A DNA stretch of 64,000 bases from a virus. Its lineage: Duplodnaviria > Caudoviricetes. Below, piece by piece: positions 2,842-54,657 of this stretch (its first letter is position 1; the number at the start of each line of letters is the position of its first letter). The position numbers were made by a program, and so were the translations under genes. The DNA lies in the IMG/VR virus record IMGVR_UViG_3300030330_004093, positions 39,014 to 103,013 of that record. One strand, written 5' to 3'. The notes beneath the pieces are model-generated. The model was given only the letters and a program-made list of their open reading frames with translations. It was not told where the DNA came from and ran no database searches.

Positions 2842-4194
2842 ATGAAAAGACTTAAATTCAAAAAACCATTCAATGGAATGGATAACGCAAAGAAACTTAT
2901 TCCAGAATCTTATAAGGTTGATGGTAAGGAGTTTGAAATGACTGATGGTAATGAAACTTACAAAGTTAAGTGGTCGTCATTAATTAATGAAGGCATTGTA
3001 TTAACATCTTCCAATAAAGCTCAAATCAATGAAGATATGGGCAAAATGAAACATCTTATGGGATTTAAATCTCAAGAAACTCTTGGAACCGTTAAGGGTG
3101 CTGATAGACTTGATGAAAATAAGAAGTTTGGTGACGTGTTAGACAAGACAAAGAAACTAATTAATGAATCTGCAATTACTGAGGTAGAAGAAGAAATAGA
3201 CGAATCAATAGAAGAAGGTGAACACATTAAATCAGGAATGGGTGGTTCTAACAAAGGTAAGAGTAGAACTGACAAGACTGAAGTGTTAAAGAATAAGTCT
3301 AAGAAACAAAGAAGAAAAGCTGACAAGGAAGCTACAAAAGACATCAATGAAAATGATGTTGAAGCACTTCAAAGCGCATTAGGTGATAGCCCAAAGGTTG
3401 CAGCTGCAGCTAAAAAGGTAAACACTAGAGATGAAAAGTTTGAAGCAGCTATTGCTTACATTAATAACATGGTTGGTGACAATGATGTATTAAAAAGTAA
3501 AATAGCTAGAACATTATTAAAAAAAGACGGTAGCGATGTTGTAAATGAGTTTGATGGAGATGAAGACGAGTACGAATACTACCGTAGAGGAGGAAGAGAG
3601 CTTGACGATTATCTAGATGATGCAGAAAAGGAAGCTAGAAGAGCAAAAGAATCTGGAATCTTTAAAGACGATTTACCACCAGGACCTTCAGACGAAGAAG
3701 AACAAGCTGCTCAAGTTTACGAAGATGACTTACCAATACCACCAGGACCTTCAGACGAAGAAGAACAAGCTGCTCAAGTTTACGAAGATAGATTTGACGA
3801 AGTTTTTGAAGGTATGTATGAGGGAGATGATATTGAAACATTAGATGAAGGTTTAAAAAACTGGATAGCTGCTGGTCTTATTACAATAGGTAGTATTGCT
3901 GGTATAGGTAAAGTTATACAATTAGATAATCAAGCACAGGAAGCTAAAATGGAGTACTATCAAAATGTGTTATCACCTAAAACTGGTGATATAGAAAAAA
4001 TGGCTGAATTAGGTCATGAAATTCAAGATGAAACACATGAGTTAGCGATGAGTATGGACCTAATTAAAACTATATCACAGGAAGAAGGTGGTATGAAAAA
4101 CTATTGGGCTGATTTCGCAAAGACTAAACTACAGAAAAATCCACAAGATTTCTCGGTAGACCAATCTGGTACTATACATTATACACCAAAATAA
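2842..4194 (+). CDS. acidic phage protein, paralogue of 1237..2838
   Basis: shared domain at N-terminus; internal peptide duplication; followed by terminator. Confidence 0.75.
   Translation: MKRLKFKKPFNGMDNAKKLIPESYKVDGKEFEMTDGNETYKVKWSSLINEGIVLTSSNKAQINEDMGKMKHLMGFKSQETLGTVKGADRLDENKKFGDVLDKTKKLINESAITEVEEEIDESIEEGEHIKSGMGGSNKGKSRTDKTEVLKNKSKKQRRKADKEATKDINENDVEALQSALGDSPKVAAAAKKVNTRDEKFEAAIAYINNMVGDNDVLKSKIARTLLKKDGSDVVNEFDGDEDEYEYYRRGGRELDDYLDDAEKEARRAKESGIFKDDLPPGPSDEEEQAAQVYEDDLPIPPGPSDEEEQAAQVYEDRFDEVFEGMYEGDDIETLDEGLKNWIAAGLITIGSIAGIGKVIQLDNQAQEAKMEYYQNVLSPKTGDIEKMAELGHEIQDETHELAMSMDLIKTISQEEGGMKNYWADFAKTKLQKNPQDFSVDQSGTIHYTPK
3675..3789 (+). repeat. 52-nt exact direct repeat x2 (PPGPSDEEEQAAQVYED)
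   Basis: 3675-3726 is identical to 3738-3789. Confidence 0.95.
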
Positions 4195-5466: not shown

Positions 5467-5744
5467 AAACCCCCATTTAAGCTTTATTTATTAATTATTA
5501 TCCTTATAATTGGAAAATGAGGACTATTAATATAATTCTAATGGAACTAGGTTTAGACAAACTTAAGATAGAGGATAAACTTGAAAAGTTAATCAACTCA
5601 AATGATGATATTGATGAAAAAACTAAAGAAATTAAATCAATATTAAGAGAAATAGTCATGATTGACGAAATGATTAAAAAATGGCAAGAGTATATGCCAG
5701 GCGAAGAGCCAAAAAATAATAACGAATAATTAAAATTAATTAAA

Positions 5745-16278: not shown

Positions 16279-16642
16279 GGGGTATAATGATATTGATTGC
16301 TTAACGTAATGGTTAACAAGCATGCAGTGTTAGATGGAAACACTAGAATAACCTATCAAGACTTTTAAACGACAACGAATTTAACGTTGACAAAAACTTC
16401 CTTGAAACTTCTACAGTAGAAGTATTTGAAGGAGAGGTAGCATTCGCCTAACAGAAGATGCACGTTCCTTCGGGGACACCAGGTTTATCTGATTGTACTT
16501 AACAATCGGTTGAAGGTTGTAAGTTACCGCTCTGCTAATTTGGGAACTTAATATTTTTGTTCTTTTAGAAAAAACGAACTAAGCATGTAGAAAGTTTATT
16601 GTTAGTAAGTAAGAAGTGGGGTCATGCCCACATACTCCACCA
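16279..16642 (+). ncRNA. ssrA: tmRNA
   Basis: 5' GGGGUAU pairs with 3' AUACUCC (G3-U wobble), discriminator A plus encoded CCA; AAGCAUG boxes near both ends; tag ORF 16371-16451; own promoter and terminator. Confidence 0.92.
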
Positions 16643-30710: not shown

Positions 30711-30797
30711 ATGAAAACAATTAACAACATACTTGTACTAGTCTTATCTTTAGCAGTGGTATTTACCACAGCCGAAGCAGGTATTGTTGTTTGTTAA
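30711..30797 (+). CDS. candidate attenuator leader peptide 1 (MKTINNILVLVLSLAVVFTTAEAGIVVC)
   Basis: 28 codons with clustered CTT, CTA, TTA, TTA; precedes a terminator and tRNA-Leu(UAA)/(UAG). Confidence 0.7.
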   Translation: MKTINNILVLVLSLAVVFTTAEAGIVVC

Positions 30798-30819
30798 ACA
30801 TATTAAAAGATAATTAAGC

Positions 30820-30851
30820 AACCCTGATTCGGAAACGAGTCAGGGTTTTTT
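30820..30851 (+). terminator. attenuator-type terminator upstream of the tRNA-Leu pair
   Basis: aaccctgattcg-gaaa-cgagtcagggtt plus T-run. Confidence 0.9.
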
Positions 30852-30891: not shown

Positions 30892-31047
30892 ATGGATGAA
30901 ATAAGAAAAAGAACGATTAGAGAATGGGCGGCTCAAGGTATATTGGGTCATATTATAGACAACCTCCTCGAAACTCTAGAAGAAACTGAAATTGAGGATA
31001 TGGATGAGATTAAAAACGAAAATCAAACCATAATTAGACACAATTAA
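30892..31047 (+). CDS. 51-aa acidic protein, absent from the ORF track
   Basis: MDEIRKRTIREWAAQGILGHIIDNLLETLEETEIEDMDEIKNENQTIIRHN, A-rich leader. Confidence 0.6.
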   Translation: MDEIRKRTIREWAAQGILGHIIDNLLETLEETEIEDMDEIKNENQTIIRHN

Positions 31048-34315: not shown

Positions 34316-34624
34316 AAAAATTAATACTATTAATACTGTTTTTATTATTAATTACATCTTGTGAAATAGAGTATGAAAAAGCAATATATTCTGTTGATGA
34401 TATTGTGATAATAAAGCCAGATAGTTCAACAGTTAAGATACTAGATTACACAACTTGGTCAGACCACACAAAATATACTGTTGAATATTTGGACACTACC
34501 AAAAAAAGTATTATATTAGAGGAAGAAATTATTAATTATAAAAATAATTAAAAAAAAATTATATTATTGAAACTTTTTACATATATTTGTAATATATATT
34601 AATAACTATTTTAATTAAATATAG

Positions 34625-34726
34625 ATGAACTTTATAATTGACATACATACATTCGAACAAAATTCACAAGGTGGGACGCCGAGTGAAACGGGTTGTTGTT
34701 TGTTGATTTTGCCAGATAAATTCTGA
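34625..34726 (+). CDS. candidate attenuator leader peptide 2 (MNFIIDIHTFEQNSQGGTPSETGCCLLILPDKF)
   Basis: lies between promoter TATATTTG (34582) and terminator; contains GAC, CAT, TTC, GAA, CAA, TCA, CCG and CCA codons matching the downstream tRNAs. Confidence 0.65.
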   Translation: MNFIIDIHTFEQNSQGGTPSETGCCLLILPDKF

Positions 34727-34748
34727 CAAGGAGTTCAAAAGAAATTAC

Positions 34749-34779
34749 AACCCAATTCAAAAACGAATTGGGTTTTTTT
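34749..34779 (+). terminator. attenuator-type terminator upstream of the 9-tRNA array
   Basis: aacccaattc-aaaaac-gaattgggtt plus T-run. Confidence 0.9.
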
Positions 34780-34797
34780 GTGCAATTATTTTAATAA

Positions 34798-34873
34798 CGA
34801 GTAGTAGAGGAGCTAGGTTTATCTCGCTTGCTTTGGGAGCAAGAGCACACAGGTTCAAATCCTGTCTACTCGA
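34798..34873 (+). tRNA. tRNA-Pro(UGG)
   Basis: CGAGUAG/CUACUCG; CUUGC-UU UGG GA-GCAAG. Confidence 0.9.
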
Positions 34874-34882
34874 CTAAAACAT

Positions 34883-34953
34883 TGCCTCATGGTGTAATGG
34901 TAACACATCTGTCTTTGACACAGAGATTTAAGGTTCAAATCCTTATGAGGTAA
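34883..34953 (+). tRNA. tRNA-Gln(UUG)
   Basis: UGCCUCA/UGAGGUA; UCUGU-CU UUG AC-ACAGA. Confidence 0.9.
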
Positions 34954-34959
34954 CAATAT

Positions 34960-35031
34960 GGTGGTTGAAGCTTTAAGGTGAAGCGTTAGACTGTGAATCT
35001 AAAGAAAACGGCTCGATACCGTTCTACCACC
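34960..35031 (+). tRNA. tRNA-His(GUG)
   Basis: G-1, C73; UUAGA-CU GUG AA-UCUAA. Confidence 0.88.
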
Positions 35032-35036
35032 CACCT

Positions 35037-35108
35037 AGGAGTGTAGTTCAAAGGATAGAACACTAGGCTACGAACCTGAAGATGTGGGTTCGAATCCTAC
35101 CACTCCTA
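35037..35108 (+). tRNA. tRNA-Arg(ACG)
   Basis: AGGAGUG/CACUCCU; AGG-CU ACG AA-CCU. Confidence 0.88.
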
Positions 35109-35114
35109 CAACAT

Positions 35115-35189
35115 CTAGAGGGATAACGATGGTTGTTTACCCGCCTTGGACGCGGGAGGCTGTAGGTTCGAATCCTACTCTCTAGACCA
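35115..35189 (+). tRNA. second tRNA-Pro(UGG), atypical D-arm, encoded CCA
   Basis: CUAGAGG/UCUCUAG; CCCGC-CU UGG AC-GCGGG; G instead of U at position 8. Confidence 0.75.
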
Positions 35190-35235
35190 AGTGTCAGTTT
35201 ATTGCGATTCTGAACAGAAACAAAAATTAGCTACT

Positions 35236-35322
35236 GGAAAGACAAGCCAATTGGTGGTGGCCGCTGACTTGAAATCAGTTAGGAGTTAATGACTCGTAGG
35301 GGTTCGACTCCCTTTCTTTCCG
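35236..35322 (+). tRNA. tRNA-Ser(UGA)
   Basis: GGAAAGA/UCUUUCC, G73, long variable arm; GCUGA-CU UGA AA-UCAGU. Confidence 0.9.
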
Positions 35323-35331
35323 CATTAATTT

Positions 35332-35402
35332 GGAATTTTCGAATAATGGTAGTTCGCCTGGTTGAAGCCCAGGAGGTAGGGGTTCGACTCTCTTAGATTC
35401 CA
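35332..35402 (+). tRNA. tRNA-Phe(GAA)
   Basis: GGAAUUU/AGAUUCC; CCUGG-UU GAA GC-CCAGG. Confidence 0.88.
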
Positions 35403-35407
35403 CACAA

Positions 35408-35480
35408 CATCGGTTCGGCAAGCTGGTTAAGCCATCACCCTTTCAAGGTGAAGTCACGGGTTCGAATCCCGTACCGATGA
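35408..35480 (+). tRNA. tRNA-Glu(UUC)
   Basis: CAUCGGU/ACCGAUG; UCACC-CU UUC AA-GGUGA. Confidence 0.9.
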
Positions 35481-35485
35481 CTAAT

Positions 35486-35558
35486 GGATGGTGTGGTGTA
35501 ACGGCTTGCATACTTGCCTGTCACGCAAGAGGTCGGGGTTCGAATCCCCCACCATCCG
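35486..35558 (+). tRNA. tRNA-Asp(GUC)
   Basis: GGAUGGU/ACCAUCC; CUUGC-CU GUC AC-GCAAG. Confidence 0.9.
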
Positions 35559-35909
35559 CATTTTATTAGTATTTACTATTGCTATTTATTAAATTTTTAT
35601 TATATTTGGGGTATGAAAAATAAAGTACTAATAGACATGGATACAGAAAGAGAAGACGTAATCAGAGTATCCAAACCAGAACAAGAGTTAAACGAAGTGT
35701 TAGATGATGAAAATACGGCTAAAAAAATGTTATATGACGACCTAACAACCTTATGTAACGGATTAGGTTCATTAATAAAATATGGTGAAGATAAAAAGTA
35801 TTTTGAAGGTGAGCCAGTAGCTGAAATATGTATTAAATTCTTAAAAGATAACTTCAGTACATTAGATGGTGATTAATTTTTTTAGTCATTATTATATATT
35901 TATATTCAT

Positions 35910-36247: not shown

Positions 36248-36643
36248 ATGTTAATCGAAAAAATAAACAAGGACTTCATGTCAGCTTATAAAGCTAAAGA
36301 AATGGTTAAAAAAGACTTTCTAGGTGTTTTAAAAACTGAAGTCAGTAGAGAAACTAAAGTACCTAATGACGATATAGTTATAGCTAAAATTAAATCAATG
36401 ATAAAAAATGCTGAAGCTACTAATTCATTAACCGATTACGAATTAAACATACTAAGCAATTACTTACCAAGTCAAATGACTGAGGAGGCATTAACGTTGG
36501 TAATTACCACCTGTATATCCAGTAATAAGTATTCTGAAATGAAGGACATGGGTAAAGTAATGGGTTGGTTAAAATCAAATTATAATGGAAAGTATGATGG
36601 TAAGTTGGCATCTAAGATAATAAAGGAAATCTTAAATAAGTAA
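36248..36643 (+). CDS. GatB/YqeY domain protein
   Basis: KDFMSAYKAKE, ILSNYLPSQMTEE, MKDMGKVM, YDGKLAS. Confidence 0.88.
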   Translation: MLIEKINKDFMSAYKAKEMVKKDFLGVLKTEVSRETKVPNDDIVIAKIKSMIKNAEATNSLTDYELNILSNYLPSQMTEEALTLVITTCISSNKYSEMKDMGKVMGWLKSNYNGKYDGKLASKIIKEILNK

Positions 36644-37184: not shown

Positions 37185-37634
37185 ATGGTTAAATTAACGG
37201 AATCGGATAAAAGTTATATGGAAATGGTTAGTTTATTAACTAAATTAACTGATGACAATAAAACTGGTGTTGGCGCTTTAATTGTAAAAAATAACACAAT
37301 AATCAGCCACGGAGTAAATGTTTTACCAAATGGAGCTAAAAAAACTAAAGAAAGAACAGAGTCACCGTTAAAGAGGTCTTGGATTATTCATGCTGAAAGA
37401 GACGCTATATACAAGGCAGCTAAAGCTGGTATATCCTTAGATGGTTCATATATGTACTGCACTTACTTTCCATGTGTTGATTGCGCTAGAGGTATAGTCC
37501 AGTCTGGTATTAAACGATTATATGCCCCAAAGCCAGATTTTAACCACAAAAGATGGGGTGTGTCCTGGGTAGAATCTATCATCATGATGAGGGAATGTGG
37601 TGTCGAAGTTATATGGACTAATGAGGTCGTATAA
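37185..37634 (+). CDS. dCMP/cytidine deaminase family
   Basis: IHAERDAI, YFPCVDCARGIVQSGI. Confidence 0.9.
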   Translation: MVKLTESDKSYMEMVSLLTKLTDDNKTGVGALIVKNNTIISHGVNVLPNGAKKTKERTESPLKRSWIIHAERDAIYKAAKAGISLDGSYMYCTYFPCVDCARGIVQSGIKRLYAPKPDFNHKRWGVSWVESIIMMRECGVEVIWTNEVV

Positions 37635-54168: not shown

Positions 54169-54225
54169 AAATAAATTGAATTATATTTGCTAGAATGAAA
54201 TAAAATACATATATTTGAAATATAC

Positions 54226-54319
54226 AGTAATATAGCAGAGGGTTACGGGGAGGTTCCGCAAGATAAGAGGTATCTTAGAAGACTTGAAAGCACCGATGCT
54301 GGTTGATACGACTATTACT
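54226..54319 (+). ncRNA. unknown multi-branched RNA (~94 nt)
   Basis: closing stem AGUAAUA/UAUUACU with three short internal hairpins; GC-richer than flanks; promoter TATATTTG at 54210. Confidence 0.45.
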
Positions 54320-54324
54320 ATTTT

Positions 54325-54520
54325 AAACTCTCCAAGCTAATGGATGAGCAAGTGAATACGCTTACAGTGCTAGGCTGTCTCAGGAGGAAACAACTCAGGT
54401 ATCACAACACTATCAAGAGTGTTAGCTTTGAAGTTAGGTACAACCGTTTACGGAGTTGTTAAAATACATAGATGAATATAGCCTATGTTTTGTATTCCAC
54501 TTGGAGGACTTGGAGAGTTT
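54325..54520 (+). ncRNA. 196-nt rod-shaped RNA, 6S-like architecture
   Basis: four nested helices separated by internal loops (see findings). Confidence 0.6.
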
Positions 54521-54580
54521 TTAAAAACAAACAAAGGTCATTAAAATGGCAATAAATGTTTGTTTCTACAGACATTTAAT

Positions 54581-54657
54581 GAGAGAATAGCTCAGTGATA
54601 GAGCGATGGTGAAGTGCACTGATTCCATAGGCGTAGGTTCAAGTCCTACTTCTCTCA
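54581..54657 (+). tRNA. tRNA-like RNA with expanded anticodon loop, identity undetermined
   Basis: GAGAGAA/UUCUCUC, GCUC/GAGC D-stem, GUAGG-UUCAAGU-CCUAC; AUGG-(15 nt)-CCAU. Confidence 0.75.

What the first reader, a model, noticed from the sequence alone, without database searches (positions are those of the whole stretch)
34582..35558. Multi-codon 'tRNA checklist' leader upstream of the 9-tRNA array
Seen in sequence: promoter TATATTTG (34582), then a 33-codon leader, then a terminator (34749-34779), then tRNAs Pro, Gln, His, Arg, Pro, Ser, Phe, Glu, Asp. Leader codons 6-19 include GAC (Asp GUC), CAT (His GUG), TTC (Phe GAA), GAA (Glu UUC), CAA x2 (Gln UUG), TCA (Ser UGA) and CCG (Pro UGG). 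That covers 7 of the 8 amino acids in the array, and uses C-ending GAC/TTC in a very AT-rich genome. GGGUUGU (34690-34696) is perfectly complementary to ACAACCC (34747-34753), which overlaps the terminator 5' arm and so could act as an antiterminator. The missing Arg codons (CGC, CGA, CGG) occur in an overlapping TTG-started frame (34638-34706) ending VVVC*, like leader 1. Inference: one OR-gate sensor induces the whole array if any listed tRNA is depleted.
Basis: partly seen in the sequence, partly recalled or inferred. Interest (0 to 1): 0.9.

Follow-up and report, generated by a model that had tools for sequence, protein, structure and literature searches.

The report
Codon-matched leader attenuator before phage tRNAs
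A 33-codon mini-gene and a transcription stop signal sit just in front of this marine phage's nine tRNA genes, and the mini-gene is written largely in codons those tRNAs read; the same layout recurs in many other phages, so the phage probably makes more tRNA only when ribosomes read those codons slowly.

Summary
The window belongs to a marine T5-like phage of a Flavobacteriia-type host.

On its own, the codon match is only moderately unusual (p about 0.01). The comparative evidence is much stronger:
- Cellulophaga phage phi4:1 has three cassettes of the same build. Their leader ORFs split the amino acids the same way as the three tRNA sub-arrays behind them. A prediction I made from the third leader was confirmed.
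- A scan that ignored codon content found 18 non-redundant cassettes in viral contigs. Their leaders match their own arrays (permutation p <= 5e-5).
- The cassettes share a stop-to-hairpin distance of 18-29 nt, an antiterminator strand inside the ORF's 3' part, and a strong preference for NCG codons.

The window's cassette fits all of these, but it is one of the less pure examples.

Best reading (about 0.6): a ribosome-mediated attenuator that gates the tRNA array according to decoding speed. No expression data could be obtained.

Two sub-claims fail: the overlapping "Arg frame" and the C-ending-codon argument.

Earlier notes of this scan describe the same class on other DNA. I found no publication of it.

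The parts
34582..34589 (+). Promoter -7 box TATATTTG (Bacteroidota type), 35 nt upstream of the leader ATG
   Evidence: Read directly in the sequence. The same octamer is this phage's recurrent intergenic motif. It is conserved in relatives L010 and L013, where it drives a protein gene instead. A 27-nt near-copy lies at window 54206-54232.
34625..34726 (+). Leader ORF of 33 codons plus a TGA stop
   Evidence: The stop lies 22 nt before the hairpin, inside the family range of 18-29 nt. The motif ACAT[AT] sits at nt 16 and 20 of the ORF, as in 14 of 18 family leaders. Gene callers did not call this ORF on four identical metagenome contigs.
34640..34681 (+). Sensor core, codons 6-19. It holds Asp, His, Phe, Glu, Gln (twice), Ser(TCA) and Pro(CCG) codons, interspersed with Ile, Thr, Asn and Gly codons.
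   Evidence: 7 of 8 array classes. Ten of the first 19 post-start codons match the array. The Pro codon is CCG, which occurs at 1.0 per 1000 codons in this genome but makes up 63% of Pro codons in family leaders.
34689..34697 (+). Antiterminator 5' strand (region 2), inside leader codons 22-25
   Evidence: This is the best duplex with the terminator 5' arm: -11.4 kcal/mol, z = -2.2, p = 0.04. In the masked-ribosome folding, it is occluded when the A site is at codons 18-29.
34746..34754 (+). Antiterminator 3' strand (region 3), overlapping the first bases of the terminator 5' arm
34749..34781 (+). Intrinsic terminator: a 10-bp stem with a 6-nt loop (34749-34774), followed by a T-run
   Evidence: scan; -12.7 kcal/mol. 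Only about 17-23 nt separate it from the first tRNA, which leaves no room for a standard promoter.
34798..35559 (+). Array of nine tRNA genes: Pro(tgg), Gln(ttg), His(gtg), Arg(acg), Pro(tgg), Ser(tga), Phe(gaa), Glu(ttc), Asp(gtc)
   Evidence: ARAGORN and Rfam.

Best explanation
The stretch 34582-34781 is a ribosome-mediated (leader-peptide) transcription attenuator that gates the nine-tRNA array.

Proposed mechanism (inferred):
1. Transcription starts a few bases after the TATATTTG box.
2. A ribosome translates the 33-codon leader. Its codons 6-19 sample seven of the eight amino-acid classes served by the tRNAs downstream.
3. If those codons are decoded quickly, the ribosome is on codons 18-29 and covers the strand at 34689-34697 while RNA polymerase makes the terminator. 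The hairpin at 34749-34774 then forms and transcription stops about 20 nt before the first tRNA.
4. If decoding is slow at any sensor codon, the ribosome lags behind. The strand at 34689-34697 pairs with 34746-34754, the terminator cannot form, and polymerase reads into the tRNA genes.

The result is negative feedback on tRNA supply: the phage makes its tRNAs when they, or the host's equivalents, are short.

Shown here: the anatomy, the codon match, the complementary strands, and the recurrence of the same design, with covarying leader content, in many other phages.

Inferred: translation of the leader, the switch itself, and the signal it responds to.
For: (1) The anatomy is present at the stated coordinates.

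(2) The codon match is unusual for this genome: p = 0.0009 per 14-codon window and 0.009 per 32-codon segment.

(3) Cellulophaga phage phi4:1 (40% identity in the A1 protein) has three cassettes of promoter, small ORF and terminator, each directly before a tRNA sub-array.
- Core residues of leaders A, B and C falling in sets A/B/C are 11/8/1, 3/16/1 and 0/6/13 of 19, with own-set runs of 11, 16 and 10 residues.
- From leader C, I predicted Asn, Ser, Cys, Trp and Phe tRNAs downstream of tRNA-Tyr (note). Fetching the region showed Ser, Asn, Trp and Phe, plus an annotated 'pseudo' tRNA whose anticodon loop reads GCA, which is Cys.

(4) A scan of 80 viral loci used only two criteria: a hairpin with T-run within 45 nt of a tRNA, and an ORF ending just before the hairpin. 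It gave 18 non-redundant cassettes.
- Shuffling which array belongs to which leader gives p = 1.5e-4.
- Presence/absence agreement gives p <= 5e-5, with a Mantel-Haenszel odds ratio of 4.2-5.0.
- The window's leader ranks its own array 2nd of 18.

(5) Shared mechanics across the family:
- The stop-to-stem distance is 18-29 nt in all 18 (window: 22).
- An upstream strand complementary to the terminator 5' arm lies within the last third of the ORF. Mean z is -2.4, and 12 of 18 have p <= 0.04, including the window.
- When RNA is folded before the 3' arm exists, the 5' arm is sequestered while the ribosome A site is in codons 2-16 and freed when it is further on.

(6) Codon-level signal in leaders versus the surrounding genes: CCG is 63% against 5% of Pro codons, TCG 44% against 4% of Ser, and ACG 23% against 6% of Thr. 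The window's leader has ACG, CCG and ACG at codons 18, 19 and 22.

(7) There is no room for a promoter between the T-run and tRNA-Pro, so the array must be reached by read-through.
Against: - No transcript, 3'-end or ribosome data exist for this phage.
- The window's core is impure: 10 of 19 residues match. Ile, Thr, Asn and Gly codons have no tRNA in the array, and Arg is absent. Measured as a fraction of matching residues, the enrichment is weak (about 7 expected, 10 observed).
- Each class is represented by one or two codons rather than a run, so a single hungry codon gives only a small delay.
- The antiterminator is short (-11.4 kcal/mol against -12.7 for the terminator) and only nominally significant (p = 0.04).
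- The antiterminator 5' strand lies 29-38 nt upstream of the stop codon's end, so a ribosome parked on the stop codon would not cover it.
- The 1:2 'anti-antiterminator' pairing is not significant (p = 0.08-0.16).
- Equilibrium folding favours the terminator wherever the ribosome is placed, so the model depends on kinetics.
- The closest relatives keep the promoter but lack both the leader and the array, so the cassette is dispensable.
- Four independent assemblies are identical across the region, so there is no within-lineage covariation to draw on.
- T5 itself, and a 47%-identity relative with 24-27 tRNAs, do not show the design.
Confidence: 0.62

Rival explanations
1. Relic cassette. The element descends from the codon-matched leader family but no longer regulates anything in this phage. 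The terminator is simply leaky, and the array is expressed at a fixed fraction of promoter activity.
For: The core is impure and Arg is missing. The leader ORF extends about 10 codons beyond the antiterminator strand, unlike most family members, in which a ribosome at the stop codon would cover that strand. The array looks like a recent indel, because the homology with relatives ends right after the promoter. A second cassette in the window (30711-30847) no longer sits directly before tRNAs.
Against: All the geometric features are kept: an open frame of 33 codons in DNA of about 30% GC, a stop-to-stem distance of 22 nt, the antiterminator complement, the CCG and ACG codons, and the ACAT[AT] motif. 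The leader matches its own array better than 16 of 17 other arrays.
Confidence: 0.13
2. An ordinary small transcription unit. Promoter, short RNA and terminator make a small RNA or a micro-peptide with its own function. The tRNAs are fed by incidental read-through, and the codon match at this locus is chance.
For: The RNA 34596-34782 folds better than shuffled versions (z = -3.3). T5 and T4 are known to carry stable RNAs of unknown function in their tRNA regions (T5 annotation). At the single-locus level p is only about 0.01, and the window was chosen after the fact.
Against: This does not explain why leader content covaries with array content across 18 cassettes, or why three leaders within one phage partition the amino acids. 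It also does not explain the fixed stop-to-stem distance, or why the peptides share composition but not sequence. No Rfam family matches the region.
Confidence: 0.12
3. Translation-coupled control, but not by the hairpin switch. Ribosome speed on the leader controls something else, such as Rho access, RNase processing, stability of the precursor, or RNA polymerase pausing.
For: Equilibrium folding never disfavours the terminator. The window's antiterminator is weak, and a ribosome at the stop codon would not cover it.
Against: A canonical intrinsic terminator is present in every cassette. A complement to its 5' arm occurs more often than chance allows (mean z = -2.4), which is what the hairpin-switch model needs and the alternatives do not.
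Confidence: 0.08
4. A two-frame sensor. A second, TTG-started ORF (34638-34706) is also translated and supplies the missing Arg codons.
For: CGC, CGA and CGG lie in that frame, although CGN codons make up only 0.2% of this genome's codons. A ribosome at that frame's stop codon (34704-34706) would cover the antiterminator strand.
Against: These CGN triplets follow necessarily from the in-frame NCG codons, which are a family-wide preference. CGG is not read by an ACG (inosine) anticodon, according to established wobble rules. The stop-to-stem distance would be 42 nt, outside the 18-29 nt seen in all 18 cassettes. Other leaders carry their Arg codons in the main frame. The frame has no ATG start.
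Confidence: 0.03

Closest known systems
Leader-peptide transcription attenuators of enterobacterial amino-acid operons (trpL, hisL, pheL, leuL, thrL; the multivalent ilvGMEDA leader with Ile/Leu/Val codons)
   Same: Both have a short translated ORF in the 5' leader that carries codons cognate to the regulated product. Both have an intrinsic terminator before the regulated genes and an alternative pairing that overlaps the terminator's 5' arm, so the ribosome's position decides between the two structures. The ilv leader likewise senses several amino acids at once.
   Different: The regulated genes here are tRNA genes rather than biosynthetic enzymes, so the quantity sensed is most simply tRNA supply rather than amino-acid supply. 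One or two codons each of seven to fifteen classes replace runs of a single codon. The element is in a phage of a Bacteroidota-type host. The stop codon sits only 18-29 nt from the hairpin. Rare NCG codons are preferred.
Attenuation of aminoacyl-tRNA synthetase genes: the pheST leader peptide (pheM) in E. coli and T-box riboswitches in Firmicutes
   Same: Both control translation-apparatus genes by termination or antitermination that reports the state of a particular tRNA or codon.
   Different: pheM senses a single amino acid. T-box leaders bind uncharged tRNA directly, are not translated, and have a conserved specifier loop and T-box sequence. No Rfam T-box (or any other) match is found here, even at E <= 10.
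Small ORFs and stable RNAs interspersed in the tRNA regions of coliphages T5 and T4
   Same: Both involve a T5-like phage whose tRNA clusters are broken up by promoters, short ORFs and terminators (T5 annotation).
   Different: The T5 small ORFs I translated are 27-96 codons long and do not list the tRNAs that follow them. No regulatory role of this kind is annotated for them.
Codon-matched leader cassettes before tRNA arrays in other phages
   Same: The build is the same in every tested respect: ORF length, stop-to-stem distance, hairpin with T-run directly before the first tRNA, an antiterminator strand in the ORF's 3' part, the ACAT[AT] motif near nt 17, CCG for Pro, and leader content that matches its own array.
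   Different: The window's example is less pure (10 of 19 core residues against 16-17 of 19 in the best cases). It lacks a codon for one array tRNA (Arg), and its ORF extends further past the antiterminator strand.

Membership tests
Ribosome-mediated leader-peptide transcription attenuator | A short ORF in the 5' leader enriched in codons cognate to the regulated product | tested here: met
   Seven of 8 array classes fall within 14 codons: p = 0.0009 per window and 0.009 per 32-codon segment. The leader's own-array rank is 2 of 18. The fraction of matching residues is only 10 of 19.
Ribosome-mediated leader-peptide transcription attenuator | An intrinsic terminator between the leader ORF and the regulated genes, with no intervening promoter | tested here: met
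   The hairpin at 34749-34774 with its T-run lies 17-23 nt before tRNA-Pro.
Ribosome-mediated leader-peptide transcription attenuator | A mutually exclusive antiterminator pairing whose formation depends on ribosome position | tested here: inconclusive
   The pairing of 34689-34697 with 34746-34754 scores -11.4 kcal/mol, p = 0.04. It is occluded when the A site is at codons 18-29. However, a ribosome at the stop codon does not cover it, the 1:2 pairing is not significant, and equilibrium folding always favours the terminator.
Ribosome-mediated leader-peptide transcription attenuator | The leader is translated, and read-through rises when the cognate charged tRNA is limiting | not testable with these tools
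Ribosome-mediated leader-peptide transcription attenuator | Tandem runs of the regulatory codon (typical of the classical trp, his, phe and leu leaders) | tested here: not met
   Each class has one or two codons, and they are not adjacent. This is a difference in design rather than a contradiction of the mechanism.
Codon-matched leader cassettes of phage tRNA arrays (class defined here from phi4:1 and IMG/VR loci) | An ORF of about 22-53 codons ending 18-29 nt before a hairpin with T-run that lies within 45 nt of the first tRNA | tested here: met
   The ORF has 33 codons, the stop-to-stem distance is 22 nt, and the stem-to-tRNA distance is 23 nt.
Codon-matched leader cassettes of phage tRNA arrays (class defined here from phi4:1 and IMG/VR loci) | The leader's amino-acid content tracks the tRNAs of its own downstream array | tested here: met
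   For the family: p = 1.5e-4 and p <= 5e-5, with an odds ratio of 4.2-5.0. For the window: Jaccard 0.58, rank 2 of 18.
Codon-matched leader cassettes of phage tRNA arrays (class defined here from phi4:1 and IMG/VR loci) | Sequence hallmarks: ACAT[AT] near nt 15-18 of the ORF, and rare NCG codons (CCG for Pro) | tested here: met
   ACAT[AT] lies at nt 16, 20 and 24. ACG, CCG and ACG are at codons 18, 19 and 22. The family bias is shown.
T-box riboswitch or other described RNA family | A match to a curated covariance model | tested here: not met
   Rfam 15 finds only the tRNAs at gathering score, and nothing credible in 34400-34900 at E <= 10.

The most novel reading that the evidence does not exclude
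Many tRNA-carrying phages regulate each block of their tRNA genes with a dedicated 'test translation'. This is a leader ORF written in the codons of that block, deliberately using slowly read, wobble-dependent NCG codons, and wired to a terminator/antiterminator switch. Such a circuit would give tRNA-supply homeostasis. It could also act as a built-in sensor that switches phage tRNA production on when host defences or host shut-off deplete particular tRNAs. The window's cassette, and a second one at 30711-30847, are members of this unpublished class.
Probability: 0.55. Interest if true: 0.9.

Novelty: new variant of a known kind. Interest (0 to 1): 0.8.

Why it matters
How phage tRNA genes are expressed, and why they are arranged in blocks, is largely unexplained.

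If these cassettes work as proposed, tRNA genes join amino-acid and synthetase genes as targets of leader-peptide attenuation. The sensor would read tRNA supply codon by codon. That would link phage tRNA arrays to the recently recognised arms race in which bacterial immune nucleases cleave tRNAs and phages reply with their own tRNAs (context: abstract of PMC12409363, listed).

The idea is directly testable, because one carrier, Cellulophaga phage phi4:1, is a cultured phage with a cultured host.

The leaders would also be useful for annotation. A leader predicts which tRNAs follow it, including tRNAs that are annotated as pseudogenes.

Tried and rejected
- Known RNA families. Rfam at gathering score and at E <= 10 finds nothing in the leader.
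- Overlapping Arg frame. Rejected as a by-product of the in-frame NCG codons, and because its stop is at the wrong distance from the hairpin.
- C-ending codon preference. Not supported in this genome or in the family.
- Close relatives via single neighbouring proteins in viral contigs. None were found. An exact leader pattern also found nothing.
- Protein neighbours in metagenomes. These gave four identical copies, so no variation. They also gave relatives at 84% identity that keep the promoter but carry a 323-residue gene instead of the cassette.
- T5. Its tRNA-region small ORFs do not list the tRNAs downstream of them.
- A relative at 47% A1 identity with 24-27 tRNAs has almost no terminators in its tRNA region.
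- A motif shared with locus L039. It retrieved only one further true leader, L163; the other 63 hits were not next to tRNAs.
- Equilibrium folding with a masked ribosome. It does not discriminate between states, because the terminator always wins. Only the truncated-transcript version is informative.
- TAnnTTTG as a family feature. Only 5 of 18 cassettes have it within 70 nt of the ATG, so the promoter type is specific to each phage.
- A promoter hidden in the T-run before the tRNA. I considered this, but a G after the T-run is not consistent across the family (reading).
- Public sequencing runs.
I repeated it from stored data.
Full report
WHAT THE WINDOW IS
The window is the last 64 kb of a 103-kb IMG/VR virus record. 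It is about 30% GC, and almost all long ORFs lie on the + strand. It carries an A1-type DNA-transfer protein that is 40% identical to those of Cellulophaga, Maribacter and Flavobacterium phages, and a protein with a type-IX-secretion sorting domain. It uses the Bacteroidota -7 promoter box TAnnTTTG in its intergenic regions, often with TTGACA 17 nt upstream. Identical copies occur in Tara Oceans and other marine assemblies. I therefore read it as a marine T5-like phage of a Flavobacteriia-type host.

CHECKING THE OBSERVATION
- TATATTTG lies at 34582-34589.
- An ATG ORF of 33 codons runs 34625-34726.
- A 10-bp hairpin at 34749-34774 is followed by a T-run.
- Nine tRNAs at 34798-35559 follow in the stated order, with the stated anticodons.
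- Codons 6-19 contain GAC, CAT, TTC, GAA, CAA (twice), TCA and CCG.
- GGGUUGU (34690-34696) is complementary to ACAACCC (34747-34753).

Only about 20 nt separate the T-run from tRNA-Pro. The array therefore has no room for its own promoter and must be reached by reading through the hairpin.

- 0.09% of 14-codon windows hit at least 7 of the 8 classes.
- 0.9% of 32-codon segments contain such a window.
- 5% of 32-codon segments cover at least 7 classes overall.

CGN Arg codons make up only 0.2% of codons, so in practice all seven attainable classes are present. Because the window length was chosen after the fact, I treat this as p of roughly 0.01. That is suggestive but not decisive.

LOOKING FOR RELATIVES
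- Searches with the neighbouring proteins found no close relative in viral contigs.
- The metagenome protein search found four assemblies that are identical across 1.6 kb, so there is no informative variation.
- It also found relatives at 84% identity. In these the lipoprotein gene and the TATATTTG box are conserved, but the box is followed after 27 nt by a 323-residue gene. Homology with the window ends at about 34605.

The leader, terminator and array therefore form one insertion/deletion module behind a conserved promoter.

THE KEY COMPARISON: CELLULOPHAGA PHAGE phi4:1
This phage (NC_021788, locus L014) has an array that also begins with tRNA-Pro(tgg). It contains the same build three times.

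1. After a TATGTTTG box, a 22-codon ORF (L014:2878-2946) is followed by a terminator (2972-2999) that ends 9 nt before Pro, Glu, Gln, His, Leu(tag), Leu(taa) and Arg(acg). Codons 4-14 of this ORF encode only Gln, Arg, Leu, His, Glu and Pro. The Arg codon is CGT, and both TTA and CTA are used for Leu.
2. After a repeat of the same promoter, a 27-codon ORF (3838-3921) and a terminator precede Ala, Lys, Ile, Gly, Met, Asp, Thr, Val, Arg(tct) and Met. Sixteen consecutive residues of this ORF come from that set, and the Arg codon is AGA.
3. A 32-codon ORF (5584-5682) and a terminator precede tRNA-Tyr.

Leader C is rich in Tyr, Asn, Ser, Cys, Trp and Phe. Before looking, I wrote down the prediction that those tRNAs would follow. 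The next 1.3 kb holds Ser(gct), Asn(gtt), Trp and Phe, plus an annotated 'tRNA-Pseudo' whose anticodon loop reads GCA, which is Cys.

The 3 x 3 table of leader core residues against sub-array sets is 11/8/1, 3/16/1 and 0/6/13 of 19. This cannot be explained by general phage codon usage.

A CODON-BLIND CENSUS
I searched viral contigs for a motif of this lineage's tRNA-Pro. That gave 80 loci with 1-28 tRNAs each. In them I looked only for a hairpin with T-run within 45 nt upstream of a tRNA, plus an ORF of 10-70 codons ending just before the hairpin. After removing near-duplicates, and adding the window and phi4:1 leader B, there are 18 cassettes. Several are striking:
- In L052, 17 of the first 19 post-start residues are Thr, Gln, Tyr, Pro, Lys or Gly (a run of 16 of them in a row). 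The tRNAs behind it are Pro, Lys, Lys, Pro, Gly, Gln, Tyr and Thr.
- In L075, 17 of 19 residues belong to the ten-member set that follows.

Statistics:
- Shuffling which array belongs to which leader gives p = 1.5e-4 for matching residues.
- The same shuffle gives p <= 5e-5 for presence/absence agreement. The Mantel-Haenszel odds ratio is 4.2-5.0 under two definitions of 'downstream'.
- By Jaccard index, six leaders rank their own array first. The window's leader ranks its own array second of 18, behind only an almost complete 18-class array.

The design is not universal. T5's small ORFs do not show it, and neither does a relative at 47% A1 identity with 24-27 tRNAs.

SHARED MECHANICS
- In all 18 cassettes the stop codon ends 18-29 nt before the hairpin; in the window the distance is 22 nt.
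- In most cassettes a segment in the last third of the ORF is complementary to the terminator's 5' arm. Mean z against dinucleotide shuffles is -2.4, and 12 of 18 have p <= 0.04. In the window the pairing is 34689-34697 with 34746-34754, at -11.4 kcal/mol and p = 0.04.
- At equilibrium the terminator always wins, as expected for attenuators.
- I also folded the transcript as it exists before the 3' arm is made, masking a 30-nt ribosome footprint. The 5' arm is sequestered (probability 0.5-0.8) while the A site is in the early codons and released (0-0.2) when the ribosome is further along. In the window the probability is high for A-site codons 10-16, near zero for codons 18-29, and intermediate again at the stop.

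This fits a race model, in which a delay at any sensor codon leaves the antiterminator intact when polymerase reaches the T-run. It is weaker for the window than for most family members. The window's ORF runs about 10 codons past the antiterminator strand, and its 1:2 pairing is not significant.

CODON-LEVEL SIGNALS
- Leaders use CCG for 63% of Pro codons against 5% in the surrounding genes. The figures are 44% against 4% for TCG (Ser) and 23% against 6% for ACG (Thr).
- The window's leader has ACG, CCG and ACG at codons 18, 19 and 22, although CCG occurs at 1 per 1000 codons in this genome.
- These codons are read by the U34 tRNAs of the arrays through U:G wobble. My inference is that they make the sensor more sensitive. 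A need for G+C in the pairing segments is an alternative explanation.
ACG-CCG-AGT and ACG-GGT necessarily spell CGC, CGA and CGG one base on. That frame's stop would be 42 nt from the hairpin. CGG is not read by an inosine-34 anticodon.
- The C-ending GAC/TTC argument fails. Those codons are 35% and 24% of their families here, and the leaders show no such bias.
- Fourteen of 18 leaders, including the window's, carry ACAT[AT] 15-18 nt into the ORF. This usually puts a His codon at position 7 or 8. It may be the partner of the G/U-rich antiterminator strand, but I did not establish that.

COMPARISON WITH KNOWN SYSTEMS
The logic is that of leader-peptide attenuation (trp, his, phe, leu, and the multivalent ilv leader). 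It differs in four ways:
- the target is tRNA genes;
- the content is a list of many codon classes rather than a run of one codon;
- the setting is phages of Bacteroidota-type hosts;
- the codon choice favours rare NCG codons.

It is not a T-box or any other Rfam family. Five full-text literature searches found no description of leader-peptide control of phage tRNA genes. That is not proof of absence, because subscription journals are largely missing from the library.

After I had reached this reading, I looked at the scan's own notes. Other agents have described the same class on other phage genomes, and they also found no publication. Those notes agree with my reading but are not independent evidence.

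VERDICT
The main interpretation is supported by comparison, although the function has not been demonstrated. Two sub-claims are rejected.

This window holds a genuine, if imperfect, member of a recurrent and apparently unpublished regulatory design. I put 0.62 on the attenuator mechanism operating at this locus. The main alternatives are a decayed relic, an unrelated small transcription unit, and translation-coupled control by another route.

Noticed in passing
A 28-codon ORF (30711-30797) rich in Leu, Val, Thr, Ala and Ile ends 22 nt before a terminator (30820-30847). A strand at 30772-30791 is complementary to the terminator's 5' arm (-12.5 kcal/mol, p about 0.01). Unlike the cassette studied here, it is followed by a 51-codon ORF (30892-31047) and only then by tRNA-Leu(taa) and tRNA-Leu(tag). 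It may be a leader that has lost most of its array. It shares a 12-nt U/G-rich element with the main leader.
   Followed up: partly
window 54182-54657: Two TATATTTG boxes are present here, one in a 27-nt near-copy of the leader's promoter. They are followed by about 350 nt of G+C-richer sequence with no Rfam match. Then comes a tRNA (54581-54657, Rfam 58 bits) that ARAGORN misses, because about 15 nt lie between its anticodon-stem strands where the model has 9. This may be an unusual tRNA together with an unknown structured RNA.
   Followed up: partly
window 16279-16642: A phage-encoded tmRNA gene is present (Rfam RF00023, 54 bits, full length).
   Followed up: no
window 36248-36643 and 37185-37634: A YqeY/GatB-like protein and a dCMP/cytidine deaminase-like protein lie just downstream of the tRNA array. 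T5 also carries a gene annotated as 'tRNA amidotransferase' beside its tRNA region.
   Followed up: no
L010:1170-2177 and L013 (relatives), against window 34605 onward: Relatives at 84% identity keep the lipoprotein gene and the promoter, but a 323-residue protein gene stands where the window has the leader, terminator and nine tRNAs. The indel boundary lies immediately after the promoter.
   Followed up: partly
L015:798-886 and L015:1254-1327 (NC_021788.1 about 90397-90485 and 90853-90926): Two phi4:1 genes are annotated 'tRNA-OTHER / tRNA-Pseudo'. One is called tRNA-Asn(gtt) by ARAGORN. The other has an anticodon loop that reads GCA (Cys). Both were predicted by the leader ORF upstream of them.
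   Followed up: partly
18 leader cassettes in L033-L103, L014 and the window: ACAT[AT] occurs 15-18 nt into the leader ORF in 14 of 18 cassettes, from otherwise dissimilar phages. Rare NCG codons are used 4- to 12-fold more often than in the neighbouring genes. The reason for the fixed-position motif is unexplained.
   Followed up: partly
L016:9547-9756 (T5, NC_005859 34546-34755): The T5 small ORF T5.070 (42 codons, 6 Cys) lies between promoter P14b and tRNA-Cys. It may be coincidence or a distant analogue of the design described here. The other T5 small ORFs show no such match.
   Followed up: no
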